A program made the translations under genes and the position numbers. Source: Candidatus Omnitrophota bacterium (GTDB taxonomy: Bacteria > Omnitrophota > Gorgyraeia > 2-01-FULL-45-10). From it: DNA of 32,000 nt. The stretch lies in contig JAMWCX010000001.1 in NCBI GenBank assembly GCA_023818895.1, forward strand, positions 117,689 through 149,688, written 5' to 3'. The notes under the pieces were generated by a model, which was given only the letters and a program-made list of their open reading frames with translations, was not told the origin of the DNA and made no database searches. This document shows positions 3,201 to 22,459 of the stretch, piece after piece. Every line of letters starts with the position of its first letter. The first letter of the stretch is position 1.

Positions 3201-3526
3201 TTAAGGATACCCTCTTTCATGAGGAAATACGCCAGGTTTAATCCCGTTTGACCGCCGAGAGTAGGTAGTATCGCGTCCGGTCTCTCTTTTTTTATTATCT
3301 CGGTGACAGCTTCAACGGTGAGCGGCTCTATGTAGGTTGCGTCCGCCATATTAGGATCTGTCATAATGGTTGCGGGGTTTGAGTTTACCAGTATCGTGAA
3401 GTAGCCCTCTTCCTTCAGCGCCTTGCAGGCTTGCGAGCCGGAATAATCGAATTCGCATGCCTGGCCTATTATTATCGGCCCCGATCCTATCATCAATATC
3501 CTGTGTATGTCCTTACGCTTTGGCAT
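254..3526 (-). CDS. carB: Carbamoyl-phosphate synthase large subunit, full length (1,090 aa)
   Basis: There are two homologous ATP-grasp halves: [42 protein letters not shown] and [35 protein letters not shown]. An oligomerisation region and a C-terminal MGS-like allosteric domain are also present. The ATG overlaps the upstream carA stop by 14 nt. Confidence 0.97.
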
Positions 3527-4652
3527 ATGCCACCTCGCGATATGATTTGGAATTTTTCTTGATTTTTAGAATGCCACCCCCCTTTTTAGCCATGGAGAGA
3601 AATCGCGGAAAGACCTCATTTATCTCTTCAAAGCCAGGGCTTGCGGGGTTATATTGAACCGACATGAACTTCAAAGTTTTTGATTCCATCGCTTCGATGG
3701 TATCGTCGTTAACGTTGCGCAGAGTTATCGCCACGCTCTTGTTATTTTTGAGAGAGTTTTCATCAATGACATAAGAATGATTCTGCGCCGTTATTTCGCC
3801 CTTGAAAGAAGCGGCCGGCCGCACCGGATAATTTACGCCATGGTGGCCTATCTTGAGTTTTCTGAGCTTGCAACCCATGGCCATGCCGATTACCTGATGG
3901 CCTGTCGCGATGCCTAACATCGGTATTTTGCCAAGAACCGTTTTAACGGTATCCGCTACTTTCGGAAGGCTTATGTCGTTTTCGGGACCGTTCGAGATTA
4001 TCAGACCATCAACTCGCATGCTCAGGATATCGGAGGCGCTTGTATCATAAGGAAGCAATGTTACATTACAATTCAAAATTTTGAGTTGATGTATAAAACT
4101 ATTGAGCATTCCCAGATCCAGGACCGCTATGGTTGGCCCAGATGATCCTGTCTTAAGAGGCGTCGGATGCTTTACGGATATGGCTTTGATAAAGTCTTTG
4201 CCGTTTGTCTTCTGTTGGCTCAATTTCTTCAGCAAGGATTCTTTCTTGAGGTCCGTTGTGGATATGGCGCCGAACATCTCGCCTTTATCGCGTATAGTAA
4301 TAGCGAGCGTCCTGGTGTCGACCTCGCTTATAGCCGTAACTTTTTCTTCTTTGATAAAATCGCATAACGAGCCCTCTGCTTGCCAGTTTGAATATATTCT
4401 GGACTCTTCTTTTATGACAAGGCCCGCTATCCAACATCTCCTCGATTCATTGAATTTTTTGGCAATACCATAATTGCCTATCAACGGATAAGTAAGGACT
4501 AGGATCTTACCCGCATTGCTTGGGTCAGTCATAATCTCCTGGTATCTCACCACAGCGGTATTAAGCACAACCTCGCCGAACCTCTCTCCTGGCTCGCCGA
4601 TAGATATACCTTCGAACGAGCTACCGTCTTCAAGCACTATCATTGATTTCAT
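3513..4652 (-). CDS. carA: Carbamoyl-phosphate synthase small-subunit homolog with a degenerate glutaminase active site
   Basis: The N-domain is conserved ([38 protein letters not shown]). The class-I GATase motifs read GIATGHQ instead of GICLGHQ, and VQYNPASPG instead of FQ.HPEA.PGP. I place the start at ATG 4652 ([10 protein letters not shown]), preceded by GGGAGA at 4657-4662. The ORF-track start at 4667 is a TTG five codons upstream. Confidence 0.85.
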
Positions 4653-4684
4653 ATTTTCTCCCGTCAATCTTATTTATAAAACAA

Positions 4685-4935: not shown

Positions 4936-7900
4936 TTATGCGAATTCCTGTACCTTGTAGAGCCGCCTGAGGTTCTCGTAGACGGGGATCCTCTCTGCCT
5001 TGGGCAGGAAGATGAAGACGTTGCGGCAGTCCTTTAGGGCCTCGGCCCTCACAGCTGGGTTGTCGAGAGCGTCTTCTGCAGCCAAAACGTCTTTTAGGCC
5101 TAGCTTCAATGCCATCGCGAGCATTTCCGTGAGGTACATATAGCAGCTCTCGTCCAGCCCGCTTGCGTCGACGCCGGCGAGAAATGCCTTTTCGTCATTG
5201 CGCAAGTATTCAAATTCCCGCGAGATGACGGTGTCGCGAGATGCGAGAACGACTACCCGCGCCGCAGGGGTAATCTCTCTTGCCTTTGCTATTTCTGATA
5301 GTAGATCTTTGTCTTCGCGGTCAATGAATGTTATGCCGCGGTCATTACAGAAATTGCGGATCATGATTATGTGCTGATTAAGGTCGGCATATTGTGGTCC
5401 GTTTCCACGCATATAGCCTTTTATCCAGCTTGTGCCGAGAGCTAGTATTACAGGCTCTTTCTGGTTCGCGGCGCGGATGAGCTTGACGATATCGGAGAAC
5501 TTTACCGCTTCTATACGCGCAAGTTCCGCTCTCGGCTGTTCGTCTGGGCTGTAGCCTGACGTATCACTGGGTTGTAAAAAAGATCCTGTCTTGTTCTCAT
5601 CTTCTGTCAGGATAGTTTTCGAATCACTAATTTTTGCGTTTACTTCAGAGGCCGCTTGCAGGTGCCAGAGCTTGGTTTTTCTTCCGTCGATTTCGGCATT
5701 AACCTTAACCCATATACCCCGGAACGGGTAAAGATAATTCTGCTTAAGATTGCTGTTGGGAATTGGTGTTCGGAGCTTACCCGTATATCTATCTTCCAAC
5801 TCCTCAACGGTAGATGCGTAAAAATATTCGAAACCCGCTTTTTGGGCCAATCTGACAATATGCATTATAGCCCCTCTATTCCACTCGTAAAATCTTTGGC
5901 GTATTTCAAGAGGTTGGATGTTGCGGAATCCCAGGCTTGGCTGGACGTCATATATGAGTAGGGCGGGTTTTTTGTTGTGTTCAGTTATCCGCAGGCGTAT
6001 TACGCCGAAAAGGCCGCTGGAAGGCACATAGTCGTCAGATGCCATCATGTCGAGCGTGGCAAGTTCGGGATAGGCCTTTTTGGTATCTTCCGTAGGTTCG
6101 ATCGCGAATTCCTGCGGGATTTCATCGTATTCGATATACGCGCCAACCTTTTGCCCTTTGACAGTCCATGTGAAGTAAGGATCCTTTTCCAGTAGTTCCA
6201 GTAGTCTGGCGAACTCCGCTGATTTCCGCAGAGAATTACCCGTCTTAGGCAATAGTAAATGTTGTGTGCCGGCATCGTAGTGGGGCGGCGCGAAAGAGCG
6301 AAATAAATTCTCAAGAGACTCATCATCGATGGATGTCAGTTTCTTGTTGACAAGGCCGAAGAGCACCTGGGGCATTGTAACAATCTTTGAAAAATGCCTC
6401 TCCAAGGCATATAGCGCTCCGCCGAGACATCCTGAGTCCGGTTCGGGAGATTTTAATATTTCACCGTTCGCAAGATAGCGCACCTCTTCTCCGCCGAAAG
6501 GCGCCAGCGACGTAACGCCGAGTTTTTTCATAGTGGCTATGACAGGTTGCCAGCGCCTCTGGTCATATATACTGTCTGGCAGCGCTGCCTCCGTTGCCGG
6601 AATACCCCACCGCGGAACACTTGGTATATCGACGATTATAGCGCTCGTCGATATATTCTTTAAAACATTGTAATTGCCGCCCAGTATGAATACCACGCCT
6701 TTTTCGGCCGATATGGTTTTTCTTAAGTTTGACAGGTATATTTCCGCCTCTTTCTGATTTGCCATAACGATATCGTTTTTTTCACTGGCAGTAAAAATCT
6801 GCCCCGGATGCACCAAAAATGAAACCCGTCCACCTTGCTGCTTAATGGCCTTGCGTATAGCATCGGCGTGTTTGTCGATGTCCGCCCATTGGATAATGCG
6901 AGCCTCGGCCATCTGATACTTACTTACGATCTGATCGGCGCGCGCAAGATAGCCGGTTGACCGTAGGTAATCCAGGCCGCGACTATGGTCCGACTCGGGT
7001 ATCCTGTCGGTCCATTCATAGTCTTCCTCTTCACCATCATAGGGAACAAGATCGATCTCTCCCCATTTGACTGTGTGGACCAGATAATGGAATGGGATAT
7101 TTTCGTTTTTTCTGTACATACCAACAAGATATGCCTCATATCCAAGCTTATTTAATATATATGTGAGCATGGCTGAGTTGGCTAGACATGATTTCAAATC
7201 CATCGACTTGACTGCGTTTTTGATCTCGTTTATGATGTCATTGCTGTTGTCTGTGTTAAGTCCATCTCTGGAACCTGAAGACGTATTTGATATTTCAGAT
7301 ACATATGTGGTCAGAGATAGGGTGGATATATTATCATCCCTATCCCTTGCTCCATCTTTTATAGCGCTGCTTATCTTCCCGCGGATTCTCACCTCATTGG
7401 AATCTTTGAGGATGGGCTCTAATTCGGAGATATCCTTTATGGCTATCCAATTTTGGTGTTTATCATCGCCGGCTTTTTCATAGCTTATTTCTACGGATTC
7501 GAATATGCCGGCCCTGGCGCATCTAAGGAAAAATGCGGCATGTGTCTCATCAGGTATGCCATAATATTCGATAAATCTATTTGGGCCGGCCTGCGATGCA
7601 AGCCATCTTACTACCTCGACACCCAATCCCCGCCGCGTATCTTTCTTGTCAAATATGCGCAGGTTCTTAAATAGCGTTGTCTCGCCATTCACGTAAAACG
7701 CGTATAATGTGCCAACAAGCTTTTCGTTCTCTTCGAGAAAATACCACGATCTGTCAAAAGCTCGCAGCCTCAACCTCTTCTCCTCGGATATCTCTACATC
7801 TTCTTCTGGAAGCGTTGTCAGGGGAGCGCGATCAGTCTCTTCTGTCCATATGCGGAAACATCTTTTCAATGCCTTTATTATTTCTCTAGCCCCTTCCCTC

Positions 7901-10900
7901 TCTCCTAGGTACTGTGTTAGGCGTGGAATGCCCGGTGTATTCATGGAGAGCCATTCGAGCTGCATTACTATTTCAGCTATAATTTGGTTATTCATTTGGT
8001 AAAGCGGGTCATCTTCGTGCTGGAGAGAGTCGAATATCCGGTTGGCTATCACTTTGATAAGGCCGGGGTTTTGTTCACACGCCCTAACAAGGCCGTTTGT
8101 TATAAGCGCGTGATTGACGCAGCAAGGCATATAATGAGTATCATGAGCTAGGTTGACGATGACTTCAAGCGCGGTGCATATAGCTTCTTTTTGGCTTTCA
8201 GTGTTTAGTGAGGCGAGATACGCAGCCAATTCGCTATAACTGCGCTCGGCCATTTGTTTAATGTCGTTACGGGAAAGCGCGTCCCGCGTGCCTTCGGTAT
8301 GGTCCATGCCTCCCAAAAGCGGGTGCTCATCGTCGCGCTTAAGTTTCTCTTCGTAAGAAAGCCAGGTAGTGGCAGAGGTTATTTCCTTGATTTTTTGCCC
8401 TTCCTGCCAGTGTTCGATTATCCCGTCCCGTCGCATAGTGGCGAATATGGGATTGGGTGCGCCGTGGATGTTCGCCGTCCTCCCTTTTTCGTACAATATT
8501 ACGACATCCGCCTCTTTGCCGGAGGTTTGCTCTCTTACGCCGATCCTTCCCTCATCAAGATATGACACCAGATCTTGCGGTAGATCACAGGCCGTTATCT
8601 TGCCGTTCGAAACCTTTATCCTCCCAATATGTTTGCCATCCTGTGTAAATGGATCAAAATCGGCCTTCATCACAGCATATTCGACAGAGTCCGAATTTTC
8701 CACCTCCGGCTTCTTATCGCCGGTTTGTTTTATGAGCTTTCTTGCGATATGGACAAGTGCCGGATTAACGATGCCTGATATTCCGGAGTGGGACGCACCG
8801 TTCCTCCAGGCCGATTTGATGAGCCAGTTCAATACCGTCTCGCCTATTCCCTTGCCCCTGTCATTTACCCGGATCGTTGTTATGACATTCGTGCCCTTGT
8901 AATAATTGACCAGCCCAGCCTTCCTGCCGTCGGCTACAATCTCATATAACTTGATAGGGCCTCCTCGATGAGATGGTATTTTGATTTTTATGTCCATAGC
9001 GCCTGTCTTTATATTCCGCAGTTTGATGACATTCCACAGGATACCGTAATGATACTCTTCCCATATTGTTCCAAAAGCATCTGTTACGGTTCTTATTCGG
9101 CCATTTTTATCCTTTTCAATATACTCAAATGGCGCATGACCGTTATTTTGCCTCGCCACCCATTCAGGTGCTGCCATGTCATCTGGTATGCCTGGACCAT
9201 CTCCTTCGCCTGACGGCGGATAATCATATGCCTGTATTTTTTTATCGGCTTTTAAGCCATCAAAATAAGCCAGTCTAGAGGCGATGGCTTTCTCTATTTT
9301 CTCTTTGTCCTCGGTCAGCTTGTATTCGAGGATCATTTGGAGTTCCTTATCCATATCCATGTCACGAGGGGCTGTCTTTCTTATCTCATCGCGAAGATCC
9401 GCAAGCGTCTGGGCATCTTCGGGCCTTGCCAGGCCAATGTATTCTATAAGTAAATAGGTGTCTTTTTCGTGTATCGTCTCATCGAAGATCCTGACCGGTG
9501 TAAGATAGTTTTCTGTTAATACCGCAATTCGGCTTTTATAGGCATCAGAAGGAACTGTCGATATTTTCGACAGGCGTATCCATATTTTAGCAAGGGCTTC
9601 CATCGTGGCGAGCACATCCTCGCTTTTTTCTAATTTACCGATGTTAGATGTTATGACCTGCTCCATCTTGACAAGTTGTATCTCGGACGCCTTATCAATG
9701 TTTCGTATAAAGTTTGTAATCGAAAGCATGATATGTTGCTGTATTTCGGGTGAGAAGTTTTTGGCGCCATGGCCATCGTCAGCGGGCACGTCCCCTACAG
9801 AGAGGCTGTTGTGGTCCATGCCGCCAAGATACCAGTGCTCCTCATCCCGCTTTAGCATCTCATCACGGGTCAGATTTAAAAGACCGGTCTCTTCGGTCTT
9901 CCTGGCCAATATTATGTCAAGCTGCTGAGTCAGGTCAAACCTGCCTATATACTCTTTTGTCCTGTGTTCTATGCCGTAAAAGGCTCGAGTTCTCCTGATA
10001 GATGAGGTCACAAAGTCCGATTTTTCATCCGCTCTCATCTTCTTCCAGTTTTCCGTGGCCTCTTTGCTGTAATAGTCGGGATTAAAGGCTATATACAAAA
10101 TCCCGCCTCTTTTCAGTGTCTTGGCCGCTGCTGAAATGAGCGCCTCCGGGTCTTTAACATAAGCCATGCCGGAGGTGATTATCACGGCGTCAAAATGGTT
10201 TTCCCACTCGGCGGGAAACTCCGGATTTGCGTTTAGGTCCTGCACGATGCGTTGGGTAAGTTTCGCGTTGACATTAAGCTCGTCCCTGTTGAGCCCTATT
10301 CCGATGATCTCCGACGCGTTTACGGATTGCGGCACATATGTAAAAGCGCCGCTCATGAGATCAAGGACCCTTGCCCCTCGTGGCAGGTAGTCTTTGAGAT
10401 AGTCTTCTATGTATGTGGTGGCCGCATCTTCCAGATAGGGTATCGCGCTTTGCGTGTCAATTAAACTGAAAGATGATTTAACATAATGGAGGATAAGGCT
10501 GGTCCTCGTGCCTATTGCCGGCACATTTTCCATATGGAAATTTTCGGCCCCCAGACAGTGTTCTATAGTCTTGAGGCCGGCGCCCCCTCCCCATAGTCCC
10601 GCGTGAAATGCCTTCGTTCTAGATTCTGTGTTATCGTTTCTTGAGGCGGTATCGTAGATGTCTACGGTGGTATTTTTTGCCAAAGAATCTATTTTTATGT
10701 CGAGGAAGATCGGCTTGCTGAAATCGGCTCTGTTGCCGTGTGAAAACGCGTTTTTGATGGCCTCCGCGATTGGTGTCATGCTTTTGCCATCGGTGAACGC
10801 GTCATCGAGTTTTCCGGAGAGCTTCATGATGGCATCATAAAGATCATCATAAGCGGATTCTTTTTCGGCGAGATAAGCCAGATTCAAAGCCACTGCGTTA

Positions 10901-13900
10901 CCGTTTTTAATGGCCTCGATAATTTTATCCACATTTCCTATGTTTATGTCAATGACGTTCTTGCCCGTAACACTTTTTACGGAAGCGGCGGTAAAACTGC
11001 CAGATATAGATGATGACGGCTCGGCATCTCTTATTCCTGACCAGCCAGTGGGCTTTGCTTCCTGGGGCCTTTCGAGATCGCGGGCTATGGCGGGATCGGT
11101 GGTCTGTTGGGCCGCTGAATCCTGCTTTGTTGCTGAAGGCCTGAGCTCAAGGTTGCCGTTTTTCCTTACGATGAGGAGCTTGTCCCGACCGGCGGCGCCT
11201 ATAGCCGCAAGCATTCTTGTCGGTATCATCAAGCGATTGCCCTTCTGGAGGTTTGCTATAAATTCGCTGTTCGATCCTATGACCGTAAGCATTTCGTTAT
11301 TTTTGGTATCTGTAATAGACTTGCCGAGCAATGGTTTTATTTTCTGTAAGAATTGACCGGCGGGATAGACAATGATGCATCTATCGTAACTTTTGCAGAA
11401 AAGATAAAAAGGTGCCTTGAATTGTGAGGCGAGGCGGGCGGGTATGGCAACTCTGTTATTACTGTCGATAGTTACTTCTGCCAGAATTTCATCCTGGTTA
11501 TCGTTAAGTTGCGCCTTATCGTTCTCAATGGAGTTTTTCTTGTCTTTATGTGATAAGTCGGTGTTTTGGTTTTTGGAAGAAGCATTATTTATTATCACCC
11601 CGAGTATCGAAACTAAAACCAGCCATTTTGTCGATACTGGCATCGTTCTTGATGCTGCGCTGGTGTGTCGGTAGGGTTTCTCTGGTTGTCTGAGCTCAGG
11701 CGGATCTTCTGCTTGGACAGGATAGAGTAGTTGGCCGTTATGGATCATGAGTCTGCTGCCATGGGAATTGTTTGCTTTTATGAGCATAACGTTTTCTATC
11801 ATTCCAAGGTTTTGCAGAGCGCGGTAAATATTTTTTACGGTTCTTAGCCAATGGGGACTGAAGATGCCGCTGTTATCCTCTAAGGCATAGCTCCCTTCAA
11901 GAATATATATCCTTAATCCCATTTTCTCGGTAAAGTTTGCAGCGATAGAATCTTGTATTTCCTGTATAGTGCAAGCTGGCGTGAAATGGGCAAGATAGTG
12001 TTTTCCGTTTTGAGGATCGTCTATTGCTAAACCAGCGCATGTGCCGACGTTGTCGATGTATAAAGGGATATCGCGGGAGTTGATTTTGTAGCTCATCATC
12101 GGAACATATACCGCATTCGTGGTGACGTGGCATATCTCCATTGCTTCTGCTCTTCTCGAGAGGTCTTCCGATAAATTCCTGACCTCTATCGGCGTTATGG
12201 CGTAGTAGCGACAGTCCTTCATGGTATCGAGCAGGCCGAATGGTAGTAGTATCGCTATGGCGAGTATGATGCCGCTCGCAAAGGCGGCTGGCAACTTCAG
12301 CCATTTCAGATGTTGTGCGCGCTTATCACGCTCTCCCCTCTTTTTCTCATACGGCGTGGTTTCATTTTCTCCCTGCACAAAGAAATGGATGAGTTCGTTT
12401 TTTGTTCTGTGATGCCTAAATCCCGATATCGGCTCCTTGAATAGCCTGAAGCCCTCATGCCCCTGAAGTATGAATATGCCGCCGGTTTTTATCTCTTTGA
12501 GTTTATCCACGAGTGCATATTCGACATCGTCCGGAGCACCGCCCATAAAGTAGTAGACAGCATCATACCTACCCAGATCTTCTTTGAGAAAATCCCCCTG
12601 CTTTATAGTGACGCTGCCCGGTTTGATGAGCCCTTCTTTTATAAGTTCATCAAGCATCTCTTTGGCATATGAGACCTTAGACGGGTCCCACTCGACCATC
12701 GTGACCCTGAACCCGAAGACCGACGCCATGAAAAACCCGAAGCTTCCTAGGCCGCCCCCGAGATCTACTATATGTGCGCCTTCTTTGAGGCCCCATTCCC
12801 GCACCGTCGGTCCAACTATGTATTCACTCGAATCCATGAATATGCCGAACGCGTTTTTCGGATCCCTGGAGACATACGGATGTTTCTGTCTGTAGTGTTC
12901 CTTGAAATCTATGAATGCCCTCATCCTCAAATATTGGGCGCGGCTCAGGTTCTCCTTTATGCTGTTTATATACTTTTCTCTGAATAGTTCTTCTCTTCTT
13001 ATTCGGAGCTTTTCGTAGGGTATCGTGCCATCGAGTTCGGCTGAGATATTAAGGGCGTGATGAGCCCATGACGTGAGGGCAAAGAAAGCCACACTTTGAG
13101 GCATGCTCATGAATATCGGTGTGGCCATAACAACAGCATTTAGTAAAGCGATAACCGTTATTTTATACCAGGGCGGCGCCTGCGGCATATGCTTGGCCCT
13201 GAAATAATGCGAGGCAACGAAAAGCGACCATGTTATGGCCGATGCCCAAAGACTTCCGGTGATTGGTGTCAAAATAATGGCTAATTCCCAGAATAACGCC
13301 TGCTCTATGAAAACCTGGGACCAGCTCTTTATCTTTTGTGGCATTGGGAAGGATTCGTCTATCTTGTCGATGAGCCAGGCCAATAGCGGTATCTGTCCCC
13401 ATGCCTCTCCCTCACTAAAATAGTCGGTTTTTGCCTCATCTACATGTGATATAATATTGTCAATATCTTCGTGCAATCCTTTCAGATATGAGCATTTACC
13501 GAAATGCTTAACGAACCATTCTATTGTTTGAACAGGTTCGTAAATGGCAAGATGATTATCGAGAGTGATACCGTCTCGAAGGATTTTCCTGATAGCATCT
13601 GATGCTGCCTTAGACTGAGCCAGTTCTTCTAAAAGTTTTGAACGTGTCTCGCCCTTAAAGAGCTCTAAGATAACAGTTTCTGCCTGCCGGAATGTTGTTG
13701 GATTGAATCGTTGGACGAATGCTGTGAGCATTTGTTCCAGCCGAGCGCGGTTGAACTCATTTTTAGGTGGTGCCTTTTCATAGGCGTATATCTCTGATAA
13801 GAGAAACTCAAAATTGGCATTCATAACATCAGTTTGAAACCTGCTTGCATCATCACGTAGTGCCTGGAGCATTCTTAGTAGTTCTACTATTATATTGTTT

Positions 13901-15471
13901 AGGGCAATATAACGCGAAGCGACAGCTGTCCCGGGAATACAATATTTTTTGAAATCCGATGCCAGTAGGGAATTTAGCCTTCTTAGAGTTGATTCCCGCG
14001 ATAAGAGTACTTTCCAGAAGCTTTCCAAGTCCACCGCCCATCCGATTTTTTTGACCTCGTTAAGATATTTTCTTATATCGGCGTATGTATCCTCAAATAT
14101 GCGTTCAAGGATTTTAATGGTAGGAATGGCGTGATGCGTCTCAGGGTCATTTTCATCATTGAGGTAATCATCGACGTCATCATTGGCGTCATCATCGGGT
14201 GGCTGGGTAATATGTGGCGTCCCCGGCCCCCAGAGGAGGTTCTCGCGATCGTCTTTTTCGTATTCCTTCTCTTTTACATTTGCTGATGCGTTGATGTCGG
14301 ACCTTTGAGCAGGAGGCTTTGTCTTAGAATGACCCAAAAACTTGTCATCGACTTTAGATATGTTTTTGTCATCCTTATCGGCTAAGTTGTGGGTTTTACT
14401 CATCGCGGTGTCTTCGTTTGTTTGTATTAAGGGCATGACCTTTACATAGACATTTGTGCCGTCACCGAGCGGTATCGTCATATCGGCATCTGTGTTTTTG
14501 TCCTCAAGATAATATTTGTAATAATAAGCCTTTACTCCGTTTCTATATAGTGGCAGATAATACGCCTTCTCTTCTTTGTTATAAAATAGTTCGTTTATCG
14601 CCAACCCTGCAAGGAGAGGATCGTTCTTGTTAGCGCGTTTTATATCTACTAAGGATATGTGGCGTTTTATTTCCGGGATAAGAGTATATTGAGATATACT
14701 ATATTGTAGATATTTTCCTATCAGGATACTTATATCCCGAAAGACAGCTTTCTCGCGGAATTCTTTATCGTCAGCGTACGCTATGGCAATAAATTCATTC
14801 TCGGCGAATATCTCAGAGGAGTCGTTTTTTTTAGGGATGCGAAGTTGCGTCTTTGTACCGTCAGCAAAAGGTCGCCAGCTTATCGAGCCGCCTAATCTGC
14901 GCATTGTCAGAGATGCGTCAATAACTCCGGTACCATTGCCTCCAAAATGTTTCTTGAGGTGCTGGGACGACCTTTCCCTTTTTCTGTAAGCTGGAACACC
15001 TTCCTTTAGAAGCTCTATTGGCTTGCCATTATCGATTACATTTATTATCAGTTCGTCAGCGTCATAGTACGCCTCAATTGTGACTACACCTACAAATGAT
15101 ACAATCCCCTTATTGCGCATCTCTTCGAATTTATCAATTATAGAATCATACGAGTTTTTCATTATTTCCATGAGCACATCTTCCATTAGGGGGTTTGTGG
15201 TAAGGCGCTGATATAGCGGGTTTTTCTCTACTTTTGTCTTAAAGTCCGTTTTTGAACGCAAAAATGACGATTCGATTTCCGGGTTGAAATTTATCCGAAT
15301 CTCCGTCCTGGCACCATTTGCAACAGATAGTATAGGGCTAAATCTGCTGGGAGGGGCAAGGTGGTATGTTGCCTCATTGGTCGCAAAACTTAACTCGTTT
15401 AATATCAGGGCAAGAATCAGGAATACAGATATTATTTTTAAAGGCAGGCTTAGTTTGTAATAACTTAACAT
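4936..15471 (-). CDS. Giant multidomain protein (3,511 aa), function unknown. Domain order: signal/anchor, GHKL ATPase, CPBP-like 4-TM block, SAM-MTase, CheD-like hydrolase, MraZ-like domain, GHKL ATPase, SAM-MTase, 2x (helical + GNAT-like), transglutaminase-like core, unassigned C-terminal third
   Basis: A single uninterrupted frame. Motifs seen, by aa range:
- aa 1-30: KLSLPLKIISVFLILALILNELSFA.
- aa 95-214: EIMKNSYDS / VIDNGKP / GGNGTGV...LGGSISWRPFADGTKTQLRIP.
- aa 715-812: EQALFW / FVASH / HHALN in hydrophobic helices.
- aa 880-1005: HIVDLGGGLG / YDAVYYF / TGGIFILQG.
- aa 1113-1251: NVGTCAGLAIDDPQNGKHYLAHFTP.
- aa 1331-1446: IDSNNRVAIPARL and LQKGNRLMIPTRML.
- aa 1560-1663: AEAIKNAFSHG / GGGAGLKTIE / GTRTSLIL.
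- aa 1683-1800: RVLDLMSG / FDAVIITSGMAYVKDP / KRGGILYIAF.
- aa 2140-2250: RGKGIGETVLNWL.
- aa 2575-2665: RRGLGVEVVRWL.
- aa 2750-2812: SCLANSAML...PFHYLVH...EIDLVP. Confidence 0.9.
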   Translation of the reverse strand: MLSYYKLSLPLKIISVFLILALILNELSFATNEATYHLAPPSRFSPILSVANGARTEIRINFNPEIESSFLRSKTDFKTKVEKNPLYQRLTTNPLMEDVLMEIMKNSYDSIIDKFEEMRNKGIVSFVGVVTIEAYYDADELIINVIDNGKPIELLKEGVPAYRKRERSSQHLKKHFGGNGTGVIDASLTMRRLGGSISWRPFADGTKTQLRIPKKNDSSEIFAENEFIAIAYADDKEFREKAVFRDISILIGKYLQYSISQYTLIPEIKRHISLVDIKRANKNDPLLAGLAINELFYNKEEKAYYLPLYRNGVKAYYYKYYLEDKNTDADMTIPLGDGTNVYVKVMPLIQTNEDTAMSKTHNLADKDDKNISKVDDKFLGHSKTKPPAQRSDINASANVKEKEYEKDDRENLLWGPGTPHITQPPDDDANDDVDDYLNDENDPETHHAIPTIKILERIFEDTYADIRKYLNEVKKIGWAVDLESFWKVLLSRESTLRRLNSLLASDFKKYCIPGTAVASRYIALNNIIVELLRMLQALRDDASRFQTDVMNANFEFLLSEIYAYEKAPPKNEFNRARLEQMLTAFVQRFNPTTFRQAETVILELFKGETRSKLLEELAQSKAASDAIRKILRDGITLDNHLAIYEPVQTIEWFVKHFGKCSYLKGLHEDIDNIISHVDEAKTDYFSEGEAWGQIPLLAWLIDKIDESFPMPQKIKSWSQVFIEQALFWELAIILTPITGSLWASAITWSLFVASHYFRAKHMPQAPPWYKITVIALLNAVVMATPIFMSMPQSVAFFALTSWAHHALNISAELDGTIPYEKLRIRREELFREKYINSIKENLSRAQYLRMRAFIDFKEHYRQKHPYVSRDPKNAFGIFMDSSEYIVGPTVREWGLKEGAHIVDLGGGLGSFGFFMASVFGFRVTMVEWDPSKVSYAKEMLDELIKEGLIKPGSVTIKQGDFLKEDLGRYDAVYYFMGGAPDDVEYALVDKLKEIKTGGIFILQGHEGFRLFKEPISGFRHHRTKNELIHFFVQGENETTPYEKKRGERDKRAQHLKWLKLPAAFASGIILAIAILLPFGLLDTMKDCRYYAITPIEVRNLSEDLSRRAEAMEICHVTTNAVYVPMMSYKINSRDIPLYIDNVGTCAGLAIDDPQNGKHYLAHFTPACTIQEIQDSIAANFTEKMGLRIYILEGSYALEDNSGIFSPHWLRTVKNIYRALQNLGMIENVMLIKANNSHGSRLMIHNGQLLYPVQAEDPPELRQPEKPYRHTSAASRTMPVSTKWLVLVSILGVIINNASSKNQNTDLSHKDKKNSIENDKAQLNDNQDEILAEVTIDSNNRVAIPARLASQFKAPFYLFCKSYDRCIIVYPAGQFLQKIKPLLGKSITDTKNNEMLTVIGSNSEFIANLQKGNRLMIPTRMLAAIGAAGRDKLLIVRKNGNLELRPSATKQDSAAQQTTDPAIARDLERPQEAKPTGWSGIRDAEPSSSISGSFTAASVKSVTGKNVIDINIGNVDKIIEAIKNGNAVALNLAYLAEKESAYDDLYDAIMKLSGKLDDAFTDGKSMTPIAEAIKNAFSHGNRADFSKPIFLDIKIDSLAKNTTVDIYDTASRNDNTESRTKAFHAGLWGGGAGLKTIEHCLGAENFHMENVPAIGTRTSLILHYVKSSFSLIDTQSAIPYLEDAATTYIEDYLKDYLPRGARVLDLMSGAFTYVPQSVNASEIIGIGLNRDELNVNAKLTQRIVQDLNANPEFPAEWENHFDAVIITSGMAYVKDPEALISAAAKTLKRGGILYIAFNPDYYSKEATENWKKMRADEKSDFVTSSIRRTRAFYGIEHRTKEYIGRFDLTQQLDIILARKTEETGLLNLTRDEMLKRDEEHWYLGGMDHNSLSVGDVPADDGHGAKNFSPEIQQHIMLSITNFIRNIDKASEIQLVKMEQVITSNIGKLEKSEDVLATMEALAKIWIRLSKISTVPSDAYKSRIAVLTENYLTPVRIFDETIHEKDTYLLIEYIGLARPEDAQTLADLRDEIRKTAPRDMDMDKELQMILEYKLTEDKEKIEKAIASRLAYFDGLKADKKIQAYDYPPSGEGDGPGIPDDMAAPEWVARQNNGHAPFEYIEKDKNGRIRTVTDAFGTIWEEYHYGILWNVIKLRNIKTGAMDIKIKIPSHRGGPIKLYEIVADGRKAGLVNYYKGTNVITTIRVNDRGKGIGETVLNWLIKSAWRNGASHSGISGIVNPALVHIARKLIKQTGDKKPEVENSDSVEYAVMKADFDPFTQDGKHIGRIKVSNGKITACDLPQDLVSYLDEGRIGVREQTSGKEADVVILYEKGRTANIHGAPNPIFATMRRDGIIEHWQEGQKIKEITSATTWLSYEEKLKRDDEHPLLGGMDHTEGTRDALSRNDIKQMAERSYSELAAYLASLNTESQKEAICTALEVIVNLAHDTHYMPCCVNHALITNGLVRACEQNPGLIKVIANRIFDSLQHEDDPLYQMNNQIIAEIVMQLEWLSMNTPGIPRLTQYLGEREGAREIIKALKRCFRIWTEETDRAPLTTLPEEDVEISEEKRLRLRAFDRSWYFLEENEKLVGTLYAFYVNGETTLFKNLRIFDKKDTRRGLGVEVVRWLASQAGPNRFIEYYGIPDETHAAFFLRCARAGIFESVEISYEKAGDDKHQNWIAIKDISELEPILKDSNEVRIRGKISSAIKDGARDRDDNISTLSLTTYVSEISNTSSGSRDGLNTDNSNDIINEIKNAVKSMDLKSCLANSAMLTYILNKLGYEAYLVGMYRKNENIPFHYLVHTVKWGEIDLVPYDGEEEDYEWTDRIPESDHSRGLDYLRSTGYLARADQIVSKYQMAEARIIQWADIDKHADAIRKAIKQQGGRVSFLVHPGQIFTASEKNDIVMANQKEAEIYLSNLRKTISAEKGVVFILGGNYNVLKNISTSAIIVDIPSVPRWGIPATEAALPDSIYDQRRWQPVIATMKKLGVTSLAPFGGEEVRYLANGEILKSPEPDSGCLGGALYALERHFSKIVTMPQVLFGLVNKKLTSIDDESLENLFRSFAPPHYDAGTQHLLLPKTGNSLRKSAEFARLLELLEKDPYFTWTVKGQKVGAYIEYDEIPQEFAIEPTEDTKKAYPELATLDMMASDDYVPSSGLFGVIRLRITEHNKKPALLIYDVQPSLGFRNIQPLEIRQRFYEWNRGAIMHIVRLAQKAGFEYFYASTVEELEDRYTGKLRTPIPNSNLKQNYLYPFRGIWVKVNAEIDGRKTKLWHLQAASEVNAKISDSKTILTEDENKTGSFLQPSDTSGYSPDEQPRAELARIEAVKFSDIVKLIRAANQKEPVILALGTSWIKGYMRGNGPQYADLNQHIIMIRNFCNDRGITFIDREDKDLLSEIAKAREITPAARVVVLASRDTVISREFEYLRNDEKAFLAGVDASGLDESCYMYLTEMLAMALKLGLKDVLAAEDALDNPAVRAEALKDCRNVFIFLPKAERIPVYENLRRLYKVQEFA

Positions 15472-15482
15472 AGATTGAATAA

Positions 15483-15510
15483 ATTATATCACACAATCGT
15501 GTTAAGTCAA
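15483..15510 (-). promoter_or_regulatory. Near-consensus sigma70-type promoter directly abutting the giant ORF start
   Basis: On the minus strand: TTGACT (15510-15505), a 16-nt spacer, then TATAAT (15488-15483), preceded by TGA (TGnTATAAT). Only 11 nt (ttattcaatct) separate the -10 from ATG 15471, and there is no purine-rich Shine-Dalgarno sequence. Confidence 0.5.
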
Positions 15511-15663
15511 TAGAAAGATAGCTAACTTTTGTCAATCTAACACTTATCTATAAAAACTATGCGTTTATAACATATATATTTGTATGGGATTGCCTTGATC
15601 AGGTATTTTTAGGATTTCGAGTTCACATTGGTTCGACATAAGGTGGCGTAGTAATGAGGTTGT

Positions 15664-20692: not shown

Positions 20693-22357
20693 TTAATCGG
20701 GGAATGGGATTATTTTCTCGACGGAAAAATTGTGTTCGAAAGCAGTATTGGCTGCTAAATGAGGGGCCTTGAGCTGCGCCTCTTGGCCGCCTTCGGAAAT
20801 TCTTCTGCGCCTGTAATCTTCCAGCGCCCCATCTCTAAGGACTTTCAGCACAGGGCTTTTTAATAGCTGGGCGTTTCTTACATAGTCGTATTCCCTGTCC
20901 TGCCTTCTAAGTTCGCTTTCCATCGATACCAAAAAACGTTTTTTATCCTCTTCGGATAAGTCAGTATTCGCGAATTCCACAAGGAAAGCGTAGCGCGGGC
21001 CTTCCTCGGGGTGCGCAACCGCGCAAAAAAATTTAAGTGAGATATTCTCCATTTTTACGACGTTGCTAAGTGCCGCATTGACATGTGATTCATAAAGTTT
21101 TTCACCTGCCAGGGATGAGGCGCCCTTGCCTTTTTGGACGAACTCTATCATCGGCGTCTTATTGTAGAAGTCGTATACTTTTATTATGTCATCGATGTTA
21201 TATCTGTAGAGTCCGCCCGCTGTGGTTACTACCAGAAAATATTCTTTGTCCTTCTCGAGTTCATTGCATAGTAAAACCCTTTTGCGAGCGCTGTTTTCGT
21301 CTTCGCGCGGTATGAATTCATAAAAATTGGTCTGTATGGCCAGCACTCCGCCGGCGTCGGTGTCATTGATCGGTATCGAGCTTCTGGCCTCGGTGGAAAC
21401 ACAACCCATATCCCTGGTGGGAACTTTGCCAAAATATGACTCCAATTCTTTCAGATATATCCCCATGACGCCGCCCTTCCAGCACTCGATTAGTTTAAGA
21501 TTCGGCCAAATATATCTGGGCATAAGCATGCCGTGTTCTTTTATTATATTTCGAAGTTTGTCAGCTCTACGCTTGTCAGCTTTAAGTCCTTTTTCTATAA
21601 TCCTGCGTATCCGCGAGGGGATATCAAAGTCACCACAGACAGTCCCTTTTTCTATATCCTCTATTATAAGATTTTTCCATTTGTCGATCTTGCGGCATAA
21701 TATGGTTATTGCGTTAGGGTTTAGGGTAGCGATATCGGTTATATCGGCCTGTATGGCAAGGCGTAGTATCGTGTAGTGGCGGGCTTCATACGACTCGATT
21801 TCGAATACCTCATACGGAATAGCGTAAAGTTTTTTTACCGGCCCCGGCAGGGCCTTGTAACTGTAGCCTGACTCAGCGCCGAATAATATTCCTGAAGGAG
21901 TCACCCCTTCTCTTATCGGGCTGACTATCGCCAGGATTTTGCCGTTTGCGACATCGGGATGGTCTCTGGCTATATAGTAACTCCATAGATTCATGAGGTC
22001 ATCTTTTTTTGCTTCCGAATATTTAGTGGTCGGAATTAGCTTCGGCTTGTCTGTTGTGCCGCTTGTTACGCCGAAGAATATCGGCTTGTCTTTTGTGAGT
22101 ATGTTATTTTCGCCGGAGGCCATCCTGTCCACAAGAGGCCTTATATCTTCGTAATCGACCATCGGTACGGAAGATAGATAATCTTTTATAGACCTTATTC
22201 GGCAGAATCCGAACCGTCGGCCGTATTCTGTGTCTTTGTTGCGTCTTATATATTCGAAAAGCACCCTCTCTTGGGCCTTCAAGGGATCGAGTGTGGCCAT
22301 TTCAAAAGCCCTGCGTCGCGGTTCGAGAAGCTTAAATGAGAGGGTGACTATATTCAA
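20693..22357 (-). CDS. GH3-family (auxin-responsive-promoter family) adenylating acyl-acid amido synthetase homolog
   Basis: RFGFCRIRSIKDYLSSVPMVDYEDIRPLVDRMASGENNILTKDKPIFFGVTSGTTDKPKLIP is the GH3 N-terminal signature. The start is uncertain. TTG 22357 has a GGAGG 8 nt upstream and gives a typical N-terminal length. The ORF is open up to TTG 22447, and ATG 22300 is a further option. Confidence 0.8.
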   Translation of the reverse strand: MNIVTLSFKLLEPRRRAFEMATLDPLKAQERVLFEYIRRNKDTEYGRRFGFCRIRSIKDYLSSVPMVDYEDIRPLVDRMASGENNILTKDKPIFFGVTSGTTDKPKLIPTTKYSEAKKDDLMNLWSYYIARDHPDVANGKILAIVSPIREGVTPSGILFGAESGYSYKALPGPVKKLYAIPYEVFEIESYEARHYTILRLAIQADITDIATLNPNAITILCRKIDKWKNLIIEDIEKGTVCGDFDIPSRIRRIIEKGLKADKRRADKLRNIIKEHGMLMPRYIWPNLKLIECWKGGVMGIYLKELESYFGKVPTRDMGCVSTEARSSIPINDTDAGGVLAIQTNFYEFIPREDENSARKRVLLCNELEKDKEYFLVVTTAGGLYRYNIDDIIKVYDFYNKTPMIEFVQKGKGASSLAGEKLYESHVNAALSNVVKMENISLKFFCAVAHPEEGPRYAFLVEFANTDLSEEDKKRFLVSMESELRRQDREYDYVRNAQLLKSPVLKVLRDGALEDYRRRRISEGGQEAQLKAPHLAANTAFEHNFSVEKIIPFPD

Positions 22358-22459
22358 CTGCTGGACCTCCGTCTCCTGGTATTCGCTAAAATGCTTAAAA
22401 GGGATTGTGCCTATCGATATTTTACTATGTGTAATTTGAAAGTGCAAAACTATTTGAGA

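What the first reader, a model, noticed from the sequence alone, without database searches (positions are those of the whole stretch)
4936..15471. A 10.5-kb ORF encodes a signal-peptide-led mosaic of protein-modifying modules with no architecture I can match to a described protein
One uninterrupted minus-strand frame of 3,511 codons has its own near-consensus promoter and its own stop. In order I can read the following:
- a signal/anchor sequence;
- a histidine-kinase-type GHKL ATPase;
- a D/N-rich acidic linker (PPDDDANDDVDDYLNDENDPE);
- a helical region of about 250 aa;
- a 4-TM CPBP-like block;
- a SAM-MTase, then a TM helix;
- a CheD-like Cys/His hydrolase, then a TM helix;
- an MraZ-like domain;
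- a second GHKL ATPase and a second SAM-MTase;
- two helical+GNAT-like modules;
- a transglutaminase-like C..H..D core;
- about 700 aa (aa 2,815-3,511) with no motif I recognise.
Methylation, acetylation, deamidation, transglutamination/proteolysis and ATP-driven modules are all macromolecule-modifying chemistries. Concatenating them on one exported or membrane-threaded chain recalls multi-effector toxins (MARTX-type, polymorphic toxins). None of the usual delivery, repeat or processing domains (RTX, RHS, haemagglutinin repeats, CPD) is visible. The effector interpretation is inference. The domain calls are by-eye motif matches.
Basis: partly seen in the sequence, partly recalled or inferred. 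Interest (0 to 1): 0.88.

Follow-up and report, generated by a model that had tools for sequence, protein, structure and literature searches.

The report
Cap-framed modular giant protein of Omnitrophota
The 10.5-kb gene is real and encodes a signal-peptide-led chain of enzyme modules. It belongs to an apparently undescribed Omnitrophota protein family in which two conserved end domains frame freely swapped enzyme cargo; the broad class of giant multi-enzyme proteins is already known and the function is still unknown.

Summary
The ORF (4936-15471, minus strand, 3,511 aa) is confirmed. Codon usage is even along it. Its promoter-like site is conserved in three related loci.

Domain calls:
- Supported: signal peptide, two SAM methyltransferases, GHKL ATPase 1, MraZ-like domain.
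- Weakly supported: GHKL 2 and the two GNAT-like modules.
- Motif level only: CPBP-like block.
- Not supported: CheD-like and transglutaminase-like calls.

The N-cap is aa 232-351. The C-cap is the last 200 aa, ending YxVQxFA-COOH. A C-cap profile finds 593 protein clusters of 373-6,923 aa, nearly always at the exact C-terminus. Most apparently full-length ones also have the signal and N-cap. A 373-aa Omnitrophota protein is just signal + N-cap + C-cap. Its confident AlphaFold model has no Protein Data Bank relative.

Cargo between the caps is mostly cytoplasm-type enzymes (HATPase_c in 15 of 47) and changes wholesale. In relatives with flanking genes 75-92% identical, the same DUF1846-X-carAB slot holds capped genes of 2,985-5,638 aa.

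The broad class (Omnitrophota multi-enzyme long proteins with MTase, HATPase and GNAT) is published. The cap frame appears not to be. Export and an effector role are inferred and unproven.

The parts
15483..15510 (-). Promoter-like site: TTGACT, 16-nt spacer, TG-extended TATAAT. The -10 box ends 11 nt before the ATG.
   Evidence: 11 of 12 matches, TG present. The -35 box, -10 box and start codon context are conserved in L001, L002 and L003. This is a consensus match plus a phylogenetic footprint, not a mapped transcription start.
4936..15471 (-). Whole ORF, 3,511 aa plus stop
   Evidence: Homogeneous codon usage. Both ends match the family caps.
15382..15471 (-). aa 1-30: Sec-type signal peptide (K6, K12; core IISVFLILALIL; S-F-A before the likely cleavage site)
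   Evidence: Family-wide net charge is +2.8 before the hydrophobic core and -0.65 after it. No SignalP run was available.
15340..15360 (-). aa 38-44: LAPPSRF motif that follows the signal in this family
   Evidence: The looser pattern L[AS][PAQ]x is found within aa 16-90 in 75 of 118 family members that look full-length; this loose pattern was not compared with a chance expectation.
14827..15324 (-). aa 50-215: divergent GHKL/HATPase_c domain (N box KNSYDS at 105, G1 DNGKP at 147, G2 GGNGTG at 177), inserted between the signal and the N-cap
   Evidence: CheA P4 and histidine-kinase ATPase domains, E = 0.008-1; the equivalent segments of P0097 (aa 103-224) and P0088 (aa 39-151) hit Pfam HATPase_c; ten family members align to the query across all or much of the signal + GHKL + N-cap stretch (aa 8-353).
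14419..14778 (-). aa 232-351: N-cap, the conserved N-terminal family domain (three helices plus a five-stranded antiparallel sheet in the model of P0060)
   Evidence: E = 4.6e-57 against the A5 profile. Model. No Pfam, NCBIfam or Protein Data Bank relative.
14140..14202 (-). aa 424-444: acidic D/N-rich linker PPDDDANDDVDDYLNDENDPE
13372..14133 (-). aa 447-700: helical region, shared at 26-30% identity with P0001 and P0003
13045..13296 (-). aa 726-809: hydrophobic block of 3-4 TM helices, CPBP-like at motif level only (FVASH, HHALN)
   Evidence: Shared with P0001 aa 638-753 at 41% identity. No Pfam hit.
12373..13008 (-). aa 822-1033: class I SAM methyltransferase 1
   Evidence: Methyltransf_31 and Methyltransf_25 above the cut-off, PCMT-like hit just below its cut-off. 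53% identical to P0001 aa 1573-1785.
11584..12285 (-). aa 1063-1296: TM helix, 190-aa domain with a conserved TCAxLAIDDP..KHYLAHFTPAC stretch, TM helix.
   Evidence: No CheD or any other hit. 52% identical to P0001 aa 778-1016.
11110..11478 (-). aa 1332-1454: MraZ-like (double SpoVT/AbrB) domain
   Evidence: Shared with P0001 and P0004.
10486..10968 (-). aa 1502-1662: probable second GHKL-like domain (weak)
   Evidence: HATPase_c_2, E = 0.023. 29% identical to P0098, which itself has no Pfam hit.
9982..10401 (-). aa 1691-1830: class I SAM methyltransferase 2
   Evidence: Methyltransf_23 and Methyltransf_11 above the cut-off.
7492..9876 (-). aa 1866-2660: two distantly duplicated modules, each made of a linker (LKRD[ED]EH..LGGMDH), a helical part and a GNAT-like part (motif A at aa 2204 and 2613)
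   Evidence: linker E = 1e-5, GNAT motif A E = 0.11, in the same order. (Acetyltransf_1, E = 0.074).. aa 2090-2369 is 56% identical to P0002 aa 542-820.
6214..7239 (-). aa 2745-3086: region with no homologue found.
5635..6213 (-). aa 3087-3279: conserved cargo module of unknown fold, shared with P0001 and P0003 at 53-60% identity
4939..5541 (-). aa 3311-3511: C-cap, a conserved alpha/beta domain at the exact C-terminus, ending YKVQEFA-COOH
   Evidence: (pLDDT 88.6, pTM 0.88)

Best explanation
What it is (well supported). The gene encodes a member of a large, unnamed protein family; every member that carries an organism name is from Omnitrophota. The family's fixed frame is:
- a Sec-type signal peptide;
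- a short LAPPxxF motif;
- an N-terminal cap domain of about 115 aa;
- a variable run of cargo modules;
- a C-terminal alpha/beta cap domain of about 195 aa whose last residues (Y-x-V-Q-x-F-A) end the protein.
The window protein is a heavily loaded member. Its cargo holds two GHKL-type ATPases, two SAM methyltransferases, an MraZ-like domain, two GNAT-like modules, a membrane cassette and several unknown modules.

How it most likely works (inferred).
1. The signal peptide takes the chain to and across the cytoplasmic membrane.
2. The two caps form one structural unit. In the cargo-less member they are modelled as one compact protein.
3. That unit serves as the constant handle for sorting, anchoring or hand-over. 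The logic is the same as the conserved C-terminal domain of type IX secretion cargo, or the conserved flanks of MARTX toxins.
4. The cargo enzymes do the variable work. They modify macromolecules using ATP, SAM or acetyl-CoA, either at the cell envelope or in a partner or prey cell of these host-dependent bacteria.
5. Cargo is exchanged by recombination among paralogues. As a result, close relatives carry different cargo at the same chromosomal slot.
For: Family and frame
- The nearest homologues are giant mosaic proteins; the two that carry organism names are Candidatus Omnitrophica.
- They share the query's N-terminus and last 200 aa, while their internal modules differ or are reordered.
- An exhaustive profile search with the C-cap finds 593 clusters at E <= 1e-3 and 345 at E <= 1e-10.
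- Among 155 C-cap-bearing proteins scanned locally (the listed hits, other retrieved homologues and the query), 139 end within 3 residues of the cap.
- Of 118 that look full-length, 83 have a signal-like N-terminus and 82 have a detectable N-cap.
- The terminal residues are near-invariant: Y 134/139, Q 131/139, terminal A 135/139.

The caps as one unit
- P0060 is a 373-aa hypothetical protein of Candidatus Omnitrophota. It consists of signal + N-cap + C-cap with no cargo.
- Its AlphaFold2 model has pLDDT 87.6 and pTM 0.79.
- Pairwise identities of N-caps and C-caps are correlated: r = 0.66, Mantel p = 0.001.
- No Pfam, NCBIfam or Protein Data Bank relative was found by sequence or by fold.

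Cargo turnover
- Pairs whose C-caps are 80-91% identical can have cargo with no detectable similarity.
- Three paralogues of 996, 1,329 and 1,988 aa sit in one metagenome-assembled genome.
- The slot DUF1846 -> capped gene -> car genes is conserved in the window, L001, L002, L003 and L005.
- There the flanks are 75-92% identical at protein level. The capped gene is 2,985, 3,398, 3,511, 4,541 or 5,638 aa, and its caps are only 47-60% identical.

Export
- The N-terminus has a positive n-region, a hydrophobic core of 13-18 residues and small residues at -3 and -1 across the family.
- Published surveys find a signal peptide and/or TM helices in 94% of long Omnitrophota proteins, and discuss an effector or surface role.
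Against: - Nearly all recognisable cargo is of the cytoplasmic kind: HATPase_c in 15 of 47 members, radical SAM, sigma-70 region 4, HTH, AAA, SAM methyltransferases and GNAT.
- Such domains need ATP, SAM, acetyl-CoA or Fe-S clusters. Outside a cytoplasm they would be inert.
- In the window protein, the positive-inside pattern around the internal TM segments puts MTase 1 and aa 1300-3511 in the cytoplasm (my own reading, not a predictor).
- If the signal exports aa 31-725, the N-cap and C-cap of this protein would lie on opposite sides of the membrane. That conflicts with the caps packing together.
- No secretion or sorting genes lie next to this gene or next to the paralogues examined.
- No signal-peptide or topology predictor could be run, and the inter-domain error map of the model was not available.
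- The 50%-identity clustering of the library removes pairs with similar cargo, so overstates cargo turnover.
Confidence: 0.5

Rival explanations
1. Cytoplasmic-face scaffold. The N-terminal hydrophobic segment only tethers the protein to the inner membrane and does not export it. The caps and nearly all cargo stay in the producer's cytoplasm. There the protein acts as a membrane-bound multi-enzyme or regulatory assembly of kinase-like ATPases, methyltransferases, acetyltransferases and DNA-binding modules. In the window protein only the 190-aa loop (aa 1082-1275) would face outward.
For: - The cargo repertoire depends on cytoplasmic cofactors.
- If the CPBP-like block has 4 helices, there are 6 internal TM helices. 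The positive-inside rule is then satisfied at every loop, with both flanks, both caps and all cofactor-using enzymes inside.
- No secretion genes lie nearby.
Against: - The N-terminus looks like a cleavable Sec signal, not a reverse anchor: net charge +2.8 before and -0.65 after a short hydrophobic core, and AxA-like sites.
- With that charge pattern, the sequence after the segment should be translocated.
- Most family members have no other TM helix, so a cytoplasmic location would need the signal to be non-functional in the whole family.
- Wholesale cargo replacement between close relatives is more typical of proteins that face other organisms.
Confidence: 0.3
2. It is simply a small member of the published Omnitrophota "multi-enzyme" or Archaeovorin-type long proteins, which coat the cell and degrade the envelope of prey. 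On this view the caps have no special role.
For: - Same phylum and the same domain vocabulary (methyltransferase, HATPase_c, GNAT), with signal plus TM helices.
- P0002, at the same chromosomal slot, carries GH2, ILEI, metallophosphoesterase and TPR modules typical of that class.
Against: - The window protein has no glycoside hydrolase, glycosyltransferase, peptidase, dockerin, SecA_DEAD or C39 domain.
- It is 3.5 kAA, below the published cut-offs.
- The caps are under strong constraint, sit at fixed positions, and exist without any cargo. That argues for a function of their own.
Confidence: 0.12
3. Artefact: a chimeric assembly, or several genes merged by sequencing errors.
For: The window does contain one broken gene: pyrG is split at about position 26465. 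So indel errors or pseudogenes do occur in this assembly. aa 1454-1900 and aa 2370-3086 have no homologue that could cross-check their order.
Against: - Indel errors break frames; they do not create a 10.5-kb open one.
- The family N-cap and C-cap sit at the two ends of this single frame, and the C-cap is followed directly by the stop.
- Four independent assemblies carry equally long uninterrupted capped genes in the same slot.
- Most modules shared with P0001 are in the same order.
- Codon usage is uniform.
Confidence: 0.03
4. It is an anti-phage or other defence protein, in which a hypervariable gene couples ATPases and methyltransferases.
For: Hypervariability at a fixed slot. A PADLOC hit to mad2 (E = 1.4e-14).
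Against: - The PADLOC hit covers only the generic methyltransferase fold (aa 893-1004).
- No nuclease, helicase or other defence signature was found.
- The neighbours are housekeeping genes.
- The signal peptide and caps have no parallel in known defence systems.
- No copy was found on viral contigs.
Confidence: 0.05

Closest known systems
Omnitrophota long "multi-enzyme" proteins: Archaeovorin-type giants (West-Roberts et al. 2023, bioRxiv 10.1101/2023.11.21.568195) and class 1 / Pfam Module 1 (Nielsen & Lui 2026, bioRxiv 10.64898/2026.06.07.730766)
   Same: - Same phylum.
- A single polypeptide tiled with many different enzyme domains, with the same leading domains (methyltransferase, HATPase_c, GNAT).
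- A signal peptide and/or TM helices.
- Poorly conserved between relatives, and of unknown function.
   Different: - 3.5 kAA, against the >= 10 kAA or > 90 kb used in those studies.
- No SecA_DEAD, C39/S8 peptidase, glycoside hydrolase, glycosyltransferase or dockerin domain.
- Sits among housekeeping genes rather than next to type II secretion or pilus genes.
- Bounded by an N-cap and a C-cap that neither paper mentions (term searches).
MARTX toxins (Vibrio and relatives)
   Same: Conserved N- and C-terminal regions frame a central array of enzymatic modules. That array differs between strains through recombination. The modules are macromolecule-modifying enzymes that need a cytoplasm to work.
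   Different: - No RTX or glycine-rich repeats, no cysteine protease domain, no type I secretion signal.
- Has a Sec signal peptide, which MARTX toxins lack.
- The caps are small globular domains, not long repeat regions.
- This is an analogy only.
Type IX secretion cargo proteins with a conserved C-terminal domain (Bacteroidota)
   Same: Sec signal peptide + highly diverse cargo + a conserved domain at the extreme C-terminus, shared by many otherwise unrelated proteins in one genome.
   Different: - That C-terminal domain is a beta-sandwich of about 80-100 aa. Here the domain is an alpha/beta fold of about 195 aa with no Protein Data Bank match.
- There is an additional N-cap.
- No match to the NCBIfam sorting-domain models.
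- No type IX secretion system is known to me in this phylum (my own knowledge, not tested).
Histidine-kinase / GHKL ATPase proteins
   Same: The most frequent cargo is HATPase_c (15 of 47 members). The query has one clear and one probable GHKL domain with N, G1 and G2 boxes.
   Different: No HisKA dimerisation or phospho-acceptor domain, and no receiver domain, was found with them in the query at E <= 1 or, for HisKA, among the 25 families listed for 47 members (34 matched in all). They are not conventional two-component kinases.

Membership tests
Cap-framed family (defined here by profiles A5 and A2) | C-cap domain at the exact C-terminus, ending Y-x-V-Q-x-F-A | tested here: met
   (E = 2e-97, aa 3311-3511, followed by the stop)..
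Cap-framed family (defined here by profiles A5 and A2) | N-cap domain after an N-terminal signal and LAPPxxF motif | tested here: met
   (E = 4.6e-57, aa 232-351). The N-cap is displaced by a GHKL insert, as in ten other members.
Omnitrophota giant / long multi-enzyme proteins (West-Roberts 2023; Nielsen & Lui 2026) | Encoded in an Omnitrophota genome | tested here: met
   Homologues are named Candidatus Omnitrophica or Omnitrophota. Flanking DUF1846 is 88% identical over the 42 residues available at the edge of locus L005, from a Candidatus Omnitrophota MAG. Some related MAGs are labelled "uncultured Planctomycetia" by their submitters.
Omnitrophota giant / long multi-enzyme proteins (West-Roberts 2023; Nielsen & Lui 2026) | Length >= 10,000 aa (Nielsen & Lui) or gene > 90 kb (West-Roberts) | tested here: not met
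   3,511 aa
Omnitrophota giant / long multi-enzyme proteins (West-Roberts 2023; Nielsen & Lui 2026) | Many distinct enzyme Pfam domains on one chain, plus a signal peptide and/or TM helices | tested here: met
   TM helices and the signal were judged by hydropathy only.
Omnitrophota giant / long multi-enzyme proteins (West-Roberts 2023; Nielsen & Lui 2026) | Divergent SecA_DEAD domain (present in most giants per West-Roberts) | tested here: not met
   No such Pfam hit at E <= 1
MARTX toxin | RTX / glycine-rich repeat regions and a cysteine protease domain | tested here: not met
   No Pfam or NCBIfam hit. No internal repeats found by self-BLAST.
Class I SAM-dependent methyltransferase | Pfam methyltransferase profile above the curated cut-off, twice | tested here: met
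   aa 896-975 (28.7 bits against a cut-off of 27); aa 1695-1821 (27.8 against 27; Methyltransf_11 25.1 against 21.2).
GHKL / HATPase_c ATPase | N box, G1 box and G2 box in order, plus a profile match | tested here: met
   Domain 1. Domain 2 is only weak (HATPase_c_2, E = 0.023) and is inconclusive.
MraZ (double SpoVT/AbrB) | Match to the MraZ profile across both half-domains | tested here: inconclusive
   TIGR00242 E = 3e-7 but 30.5 bits against a cut-off of 98. Pfam 20.3 bits against a cut-off of 23. Four solved MraZ sequences at E = 0.006-0.02. It is a related domain, not an MraZ orthologue.
GNAT acetyltransferase | Pfam GNAT profile and motif A (R/Q-x-x-G-x-G/A) | tested here: inconclusive
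   Acetyltransf_1 E = 0.074, below the cut-off. Motif A-like RGKGIG at aa 2204 and RRGLG at aa 2613.
CheD deamidase | Match to the CheD profile or to CheD structures | tested here: not met
   No Pfam hit at E <= 1. A profile of the query plus P0001 finds no CheD in the Protein Data Bank.
CPBP / Rce1-like intramembrane protease | Motifs EExxxR, FxxxH and HxxxN on successive TM helices, plus a Pfam PF02517 match | tested here: inconclusive
   FVASH and HHALN are present and conserved in P0001. The first motif is degenerate (EQALFW). No Pfam hit.
Transglutaminase-like cysteine protease | Profile match with a Cys-His-Asp core | tested here: not met
   No Pfam or Protein Data Bank sequence hit for aa 2560-3070.
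Type IX secretion C-terminal sorting domain | Match to the sorting-domain profiles; beta-sandwich fold | tested here: not met
   No NCBIfam or Pfam hit. The model is an alpha/beta fold.

The most novel reading that the evidence does not exclude
The N-cap and C-cap together form a previously undescribed, Omnitrophota-specific "clasp". It marks hundreds of Sec-exported, cytoplasm-type enzymes for a dedicated sorting or delivery route into partner or prey cells. That would make this a new effector-delivery family, in which cargo cassettes are swapped between fixed bookends and a cargo-less form exists as the bare handle.
Probability: 0.22. Interest if true: 0.85.

Novelty: new variant of a known kind. 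Interest (0 to 1): 0.6.

Why it matters
Omnitrophota are ultra-small bacteria that depend on hosts or prey on other cells. Their huge, poorly conserved proteins are their most striking genomic trait, and their least understood one. Work so far has catalogued only the largest of these, as domain lists.

The cap frame provides a sequence-defined handle:
- two short profiles that pull out at least 345-593 protein clusters;
- a minimal 373-aa member that is suitable for structure and localisation work;
- a syntenic slot where cargo turnover between close relatives can be measured.

That turns "what do these mosaics do, and where do they act?" into testable questions. Is the signal cleaved? Do the caps bind each other or a partner? 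Where do capped proteins end up?

If the caps prove to be a sorting or delivery signal, this would be a new secretion-substrate class. If they do not, it is still a clear natural example of domain-cassette exchange within a fixed protein frame.

Tried and rejected
- Exact-sequence look-up of the query found nothing.
- Sequence searches of the Protein Data Bank gave nothing significant. They covered the 190-aa inter-TM domain, the aa 3087-3279 module, GNAT module 1, aa 2560-3070 and both caps.
- Foldseek searches of the Protein Data Bank with the C-cap model and with the model of the minimal protein gave nothing at E <= 1e-3, with TM-scores <= 0.35. I therefore do not assign the caps to any known fold family beyond "alpha/beta three-layer". 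A receiver-domain (CheY-like) reading of the C-cap was considered and dropped. The conserved acidic residues expected after strands 1 and 3 are absent, and the only response-regulator hit is insignificant (E = 0.064).
- The pattern-based scans of genome and metagenome contigs returned only 5 loci each. That was too few for neighbour statistics, so I could not look for a recurrent partner gene. The viral contig scan found nothing.
- The N-cap word-index search found one new fragment only.
- The PADLOC hit to mad2 was rejected as a generic methyltransferase-fold hit.
- Self-BLAST found no long internal repeats. The only duplication signal is the short linker plus GNAT motif A.
- A mobile-element explanation was rejected for this locus: there are no integrase or transposase genes, and the flanks are conserved.
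- Taxon names for 20 family representatives were mostly unavailable.

Full report
**1. The observation**

The minus-strand ORF at 4936..15471 exists as described. It has an ATG start and encodes 3,511 aa. The frame from stop to stop is only 4 codons longer. GC3 (0.44-0.55) and codon usage (cosine 0.88-0.94 to the housekeeping neighbours) are even along its length.

A promoter-like site, TTGACT-16-TGtgaTATAAT, lies at 15510..15483. The -35 box, the extended -10 box and the ATGTTAAG start context are conserved in three orthologous loci from other assemblies. This is better evidence than a consensus match alone. The -10 box ends 11 nt before the ATG, which implies an almost leaderless mRNA.

The neighbours are ordinary bacterial housekeeping genes:
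- carA and carB downstream;
- DUF1846 upstream;
- also dus, a GH3-family gene, a second carA with a carB N-terminal half, pyrG, gdh and gltD-like genes.

**2.

| Call | Result |
|---|---|
| Two SAM methyltransferases | Pfam hits above the curated cut-offs |
| MraZ-like domain | TIGR00242 E = 3e-7; four solved MraZ sequences at E = 0.006-0.02 |
| GHKL domain 1 (aa 50-215) | No direct Pfam hit. A two-sequence profile hits only CheA and histidine-kinase ATPase domains, with N, G1 and G2 boxes in order. The equivalent segments of P0097 and P0088 hit Pfam HATPase_c. |
| GHKL domain 2 | Weak (E = 0.023) |
| GNAT 2 | Weak (E = 0.074) |
| GNAT 1 | Weak (acetyltransferase 3f8k, E = 0.23) |
| Two "helical + GNAT" modules | A distant tandem duplication: the linker LKRD[ED]EH..LGGMDH and GNAT motif A recur in the same order |
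| CPBP-like block | Motif level only: FxxxH and HxxxN conserved in the query and P0001, first motif degenerate, no Pfam hit |
| CheD-like | No support |
| Transglutaminase-like | No support |

**3.

The closest relatives are a handful of giant mosaic proteins of 2,453-5,638 aa. The two that carry organism names are Candidatus Omnitrophica. They do not align end to end with the query. They share three things:
- the first 45 or so residues;
- a domain of about 115 aa (query aa 232-351, the "N-cap");
- the last 200 or so residues (aa 3311-3511, the "C-cap").

Between the caps they share some modules, partly in a different order, and otherwise differ.

**4. The chromosomal slot**

In the window and in four other assemblies, the capped gene follows DUF1846 and/or precedes car genes. 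Not every locus shows both flanks.

| Feature | Value |
|---|---|
| DUF1846 protein identity to the window | 86-89% |
| CarB protein identity | 88-92% |
| CarA protein identity | 75% |
| Length of the capped gene | 2,985, 3,398, 3,511, 4,541 or 5,638 aa |
| Identity of its caps | 47-60% |

At L002 a second long gene with a divergent C-cap follows the first.

**5. Family size and rules**

A C-cap profile was searched exhaustively against 1.84 billion representative proteins. It finds 593 proteins at E <= 1e-3, 345 at E <= 1e-10 and 118 at E <= 1e-30.

The local scan covered the listed hits together with the other retrieved homologues and the query; 155 of these carry the C-cap.
- 139 of the 155 C-cap proteins end within three residues of the cap.
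- The tail consensus is [IL]-Y-x-[VLA]-Q-x-F-A-COOH, with terminal Ala in 135 of 139.
- Of 118 proteins that look full-length, 83 have a signal-like N-terminus and 82 a detectable N-cap.
- The N-cap is normally at aa 50-200. In some it is pushed downstream by an insert. Ten members align to the query across all or much of its signal + GHKL + N-cap stretch (aa 8-353).
- Lengths run from 373 to 6,923 aa, which is below the cut-offs of the published giant-protein surveys.
- One metagenome-assembled genome carries three paralogues of 996, 1,329 and 1,988 aa, scattered among housekeeping genes.

**6. The caps as a unit**

P0060 is a 373-aa hypothetical protein of Candidatus Omnitrophota. It is nothing but signal, N-cap and C-cap.

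Models:
- P0060, with a 47-sequence alignment: AlphaFold2 pLDDT 87.6, pTM 0.79. The pTM value suggests a defined arrangement of the two domains, but I could not inspect the error map.
- The query's own C-cap: pLDDT 88.6, pTM 0.88, a three-layer alpha/beta domain.

Searches for relatives of the caps:
- Neither model has a significant neighbour in the Protein Data Bank.
- Neither cap has a Pfam, NCBIfam or Protein Data Bank sequence match.

Pairwise identities of N-caps and C-caps are correlated across 74 proteins (r = 0.66, Mantel p = 0.001). This fits inheritance of the two caps together.

**7. Cargo**

Across 47 mid-sized members the recognisable cargo is as follows:
- HATPase_c in 15;
- radical SAM, methyltransferases and AAA-type kinases in 2 each;
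- single cases of ARMT1-like phosphatase, epimerase, low-molecular-weight phosphatase, sigma-70 region 4, HTH, HAD, AIRS and CheR.

The larger members add HD, PALP, GT2, GNAT, GH2, ILEI, metallophosphoesterase, TPR and a weak, below-threshold protein-kinase-like hit.

Pairs whose C-caps are 80-91% identical can have cargo with no detectable similarity. One caveat applies: the library is clustered at 50% identity, which removes pairs with similar cargo.

**8. Mechanism**

*Shown.* A fixed frame (signal, LAPPxxF motif, N-cap ... C-cap-COOH), an interchangeable enzymatic middle, and rapid replacement at a conserved locus.

*Inferred.* The frame supplies a common service, such as targeting, anchoring or hand-over, and the cargo supplies the chemistry.

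*For export.* The N-terminus has all the hallmarks of a cleavable Sec signal:
- net charge +2.8 before a hydrophobic core of 13-18 residues;
- net charge -0.65 after it;
- small residues at -3 and -1.

This favours export. Given cofactor-dependent cargo, it also favours action in another cell's cytoplasm or at the envelope. That fits the host-dependent or predatory lifestyle proposed for the phylum.

*Against export.* The cargo is overwhelmingly cytoplasm-type. My positive-inside reading of the query's internal TM segments places MTase 1 and aa 1300-3511 inside.

*Two topologies fit the query.*
1. With 5 internal spans, aa 31-725 are outside and the C-terminal 2,200 aa are inside. The two caps are then on opposite sides of the membrane.
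2. With 6 spans and a non-translocating N-terminus, everything is inside except aa 1082-1275.

I cannot decide between them with the tools at hand. I rate export with a shared handle at about 0.5 and the cytoplasmic-face scaffold at about 0.3.

**9. Comparison with what is known**

The class is published. The sources are Seymour et al. 2023 (PMC10066038), West-Roberts et al. 2023 and Nielsen & Lui 2026. They describe Omnitrophota long proteins that:
- tile many enzyme domains on one chain;
- are led by methyltransferase, HATPase_c and GNAT ("Module 1");
- carry a signal peptide or TM helices in 94% of cases;
- are poorly conserved and of unknown function.

Neither preprint mentions conserved terminal domains, a cargo-less form, or this locus (term searches). 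Both consider only much longer proteins.

MARTX toxins and type IX secretion cargo are functional analogies, and every defining feature I could test was not met.

I classify the finding as a new variant of a known kind.

**10. Limits**

- No signal-peptide or topology predictor and no read data were available.
- There was no AlphaFold database fold search. Only two structure jobs were allowed, so the unknown cargo modules remain unmodelled.
- Taxon labels were available for only a few family members, all of them Omnitrophota.
- The pattern-based contig scans returned too few loci for neighbour statistics.

Noticed in passing
window 25266-26874 (-): pyrG (CTP synthase) is split by a frame break. 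A 135-aa N-terminal piece (26467-26874) has a garbled last 20 or so residues. A 398-aa piece (25266-26462) starts at profile position 136. This is either a pseudogene or an indel error in the assembly.
   Followed up: partly
window 254-4667 and 22460-25208 (-): There are two carbamoyl-phosphate synthase loci. carA plus a full-length carB lie next to the giant gene. A second carA lies with only the N-terminal half of carB (556 aa). In L001 the capped gene is followed by a carB C-terminal half (523 aa).
   Followed up: partly
window 15472-15600 (-); L001, L002, L003 upstream regions: The -35 box, the TG-extended -10 box and the ATGTTAAG start are conserved across four loci, along with a further conserved upstream element, TGTTAG.T.A.AAAA. 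The leader would be only about 5 nt, with no Shine-Dalgarno sequence.
   Followed up: partly
L002 23679-29732 (+): A second long gene (2,017 aa, mannitol dehydrogenase domains) lies directly after the 4,541-aa capped gene. It also ends in a divergent C-cap (E = 1.4e-14), so family members can sit in tandem.
   Followed up: partly
P0005 (3,804 aa, ENA contig): This protein shares the signal plus an LAAPSRL motif and a GHKL 1-like module (37% identity to query aa 50-244), but no C-cap was detected. The signal/LAPPxxF leader may therefore be used more widely than the cap family.
   Followed up: no
window 8335-8355 with 9808-9852 (aa 1873-1887 and 2377-2391): A 15-aa linker motif, LKRD[ED]EH..LGGMDH, occurs twice in the query, each time just before a helical+GNAT module. 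It occurs in none of the other roughly 160 family proteins examined. It could be a duplication scar or a processing site.
   Followed up: partly
window 11647-12228 (aa 1082-1275): The domain between the two TM helices has a strongly conserved stretch, TCA.LAIDDP..KHYLAHFTPAC, 56% identical overall to P0001. It includes two invariant Cys and two invariant His residues and matches nothing known. It is the one part of the protein that my reading of either topology places outside the cytoplasm.
   Followed up: partly
window 30974-31873 (-): This ORF encodes a Laminin_G_3 (concanavalin-like) protein. Seymour et al. 2023 note that domain on Omnitrophota giant adhesin-like ORFs. Here it is a separate 299-aa ORF.
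   Followed up: no
window 20693-22447 (-): A GH3-family (acyl-acid amido synthetase-like) gene with all three GH3 domains lies between dus and the second car locus.
   Followed up: no
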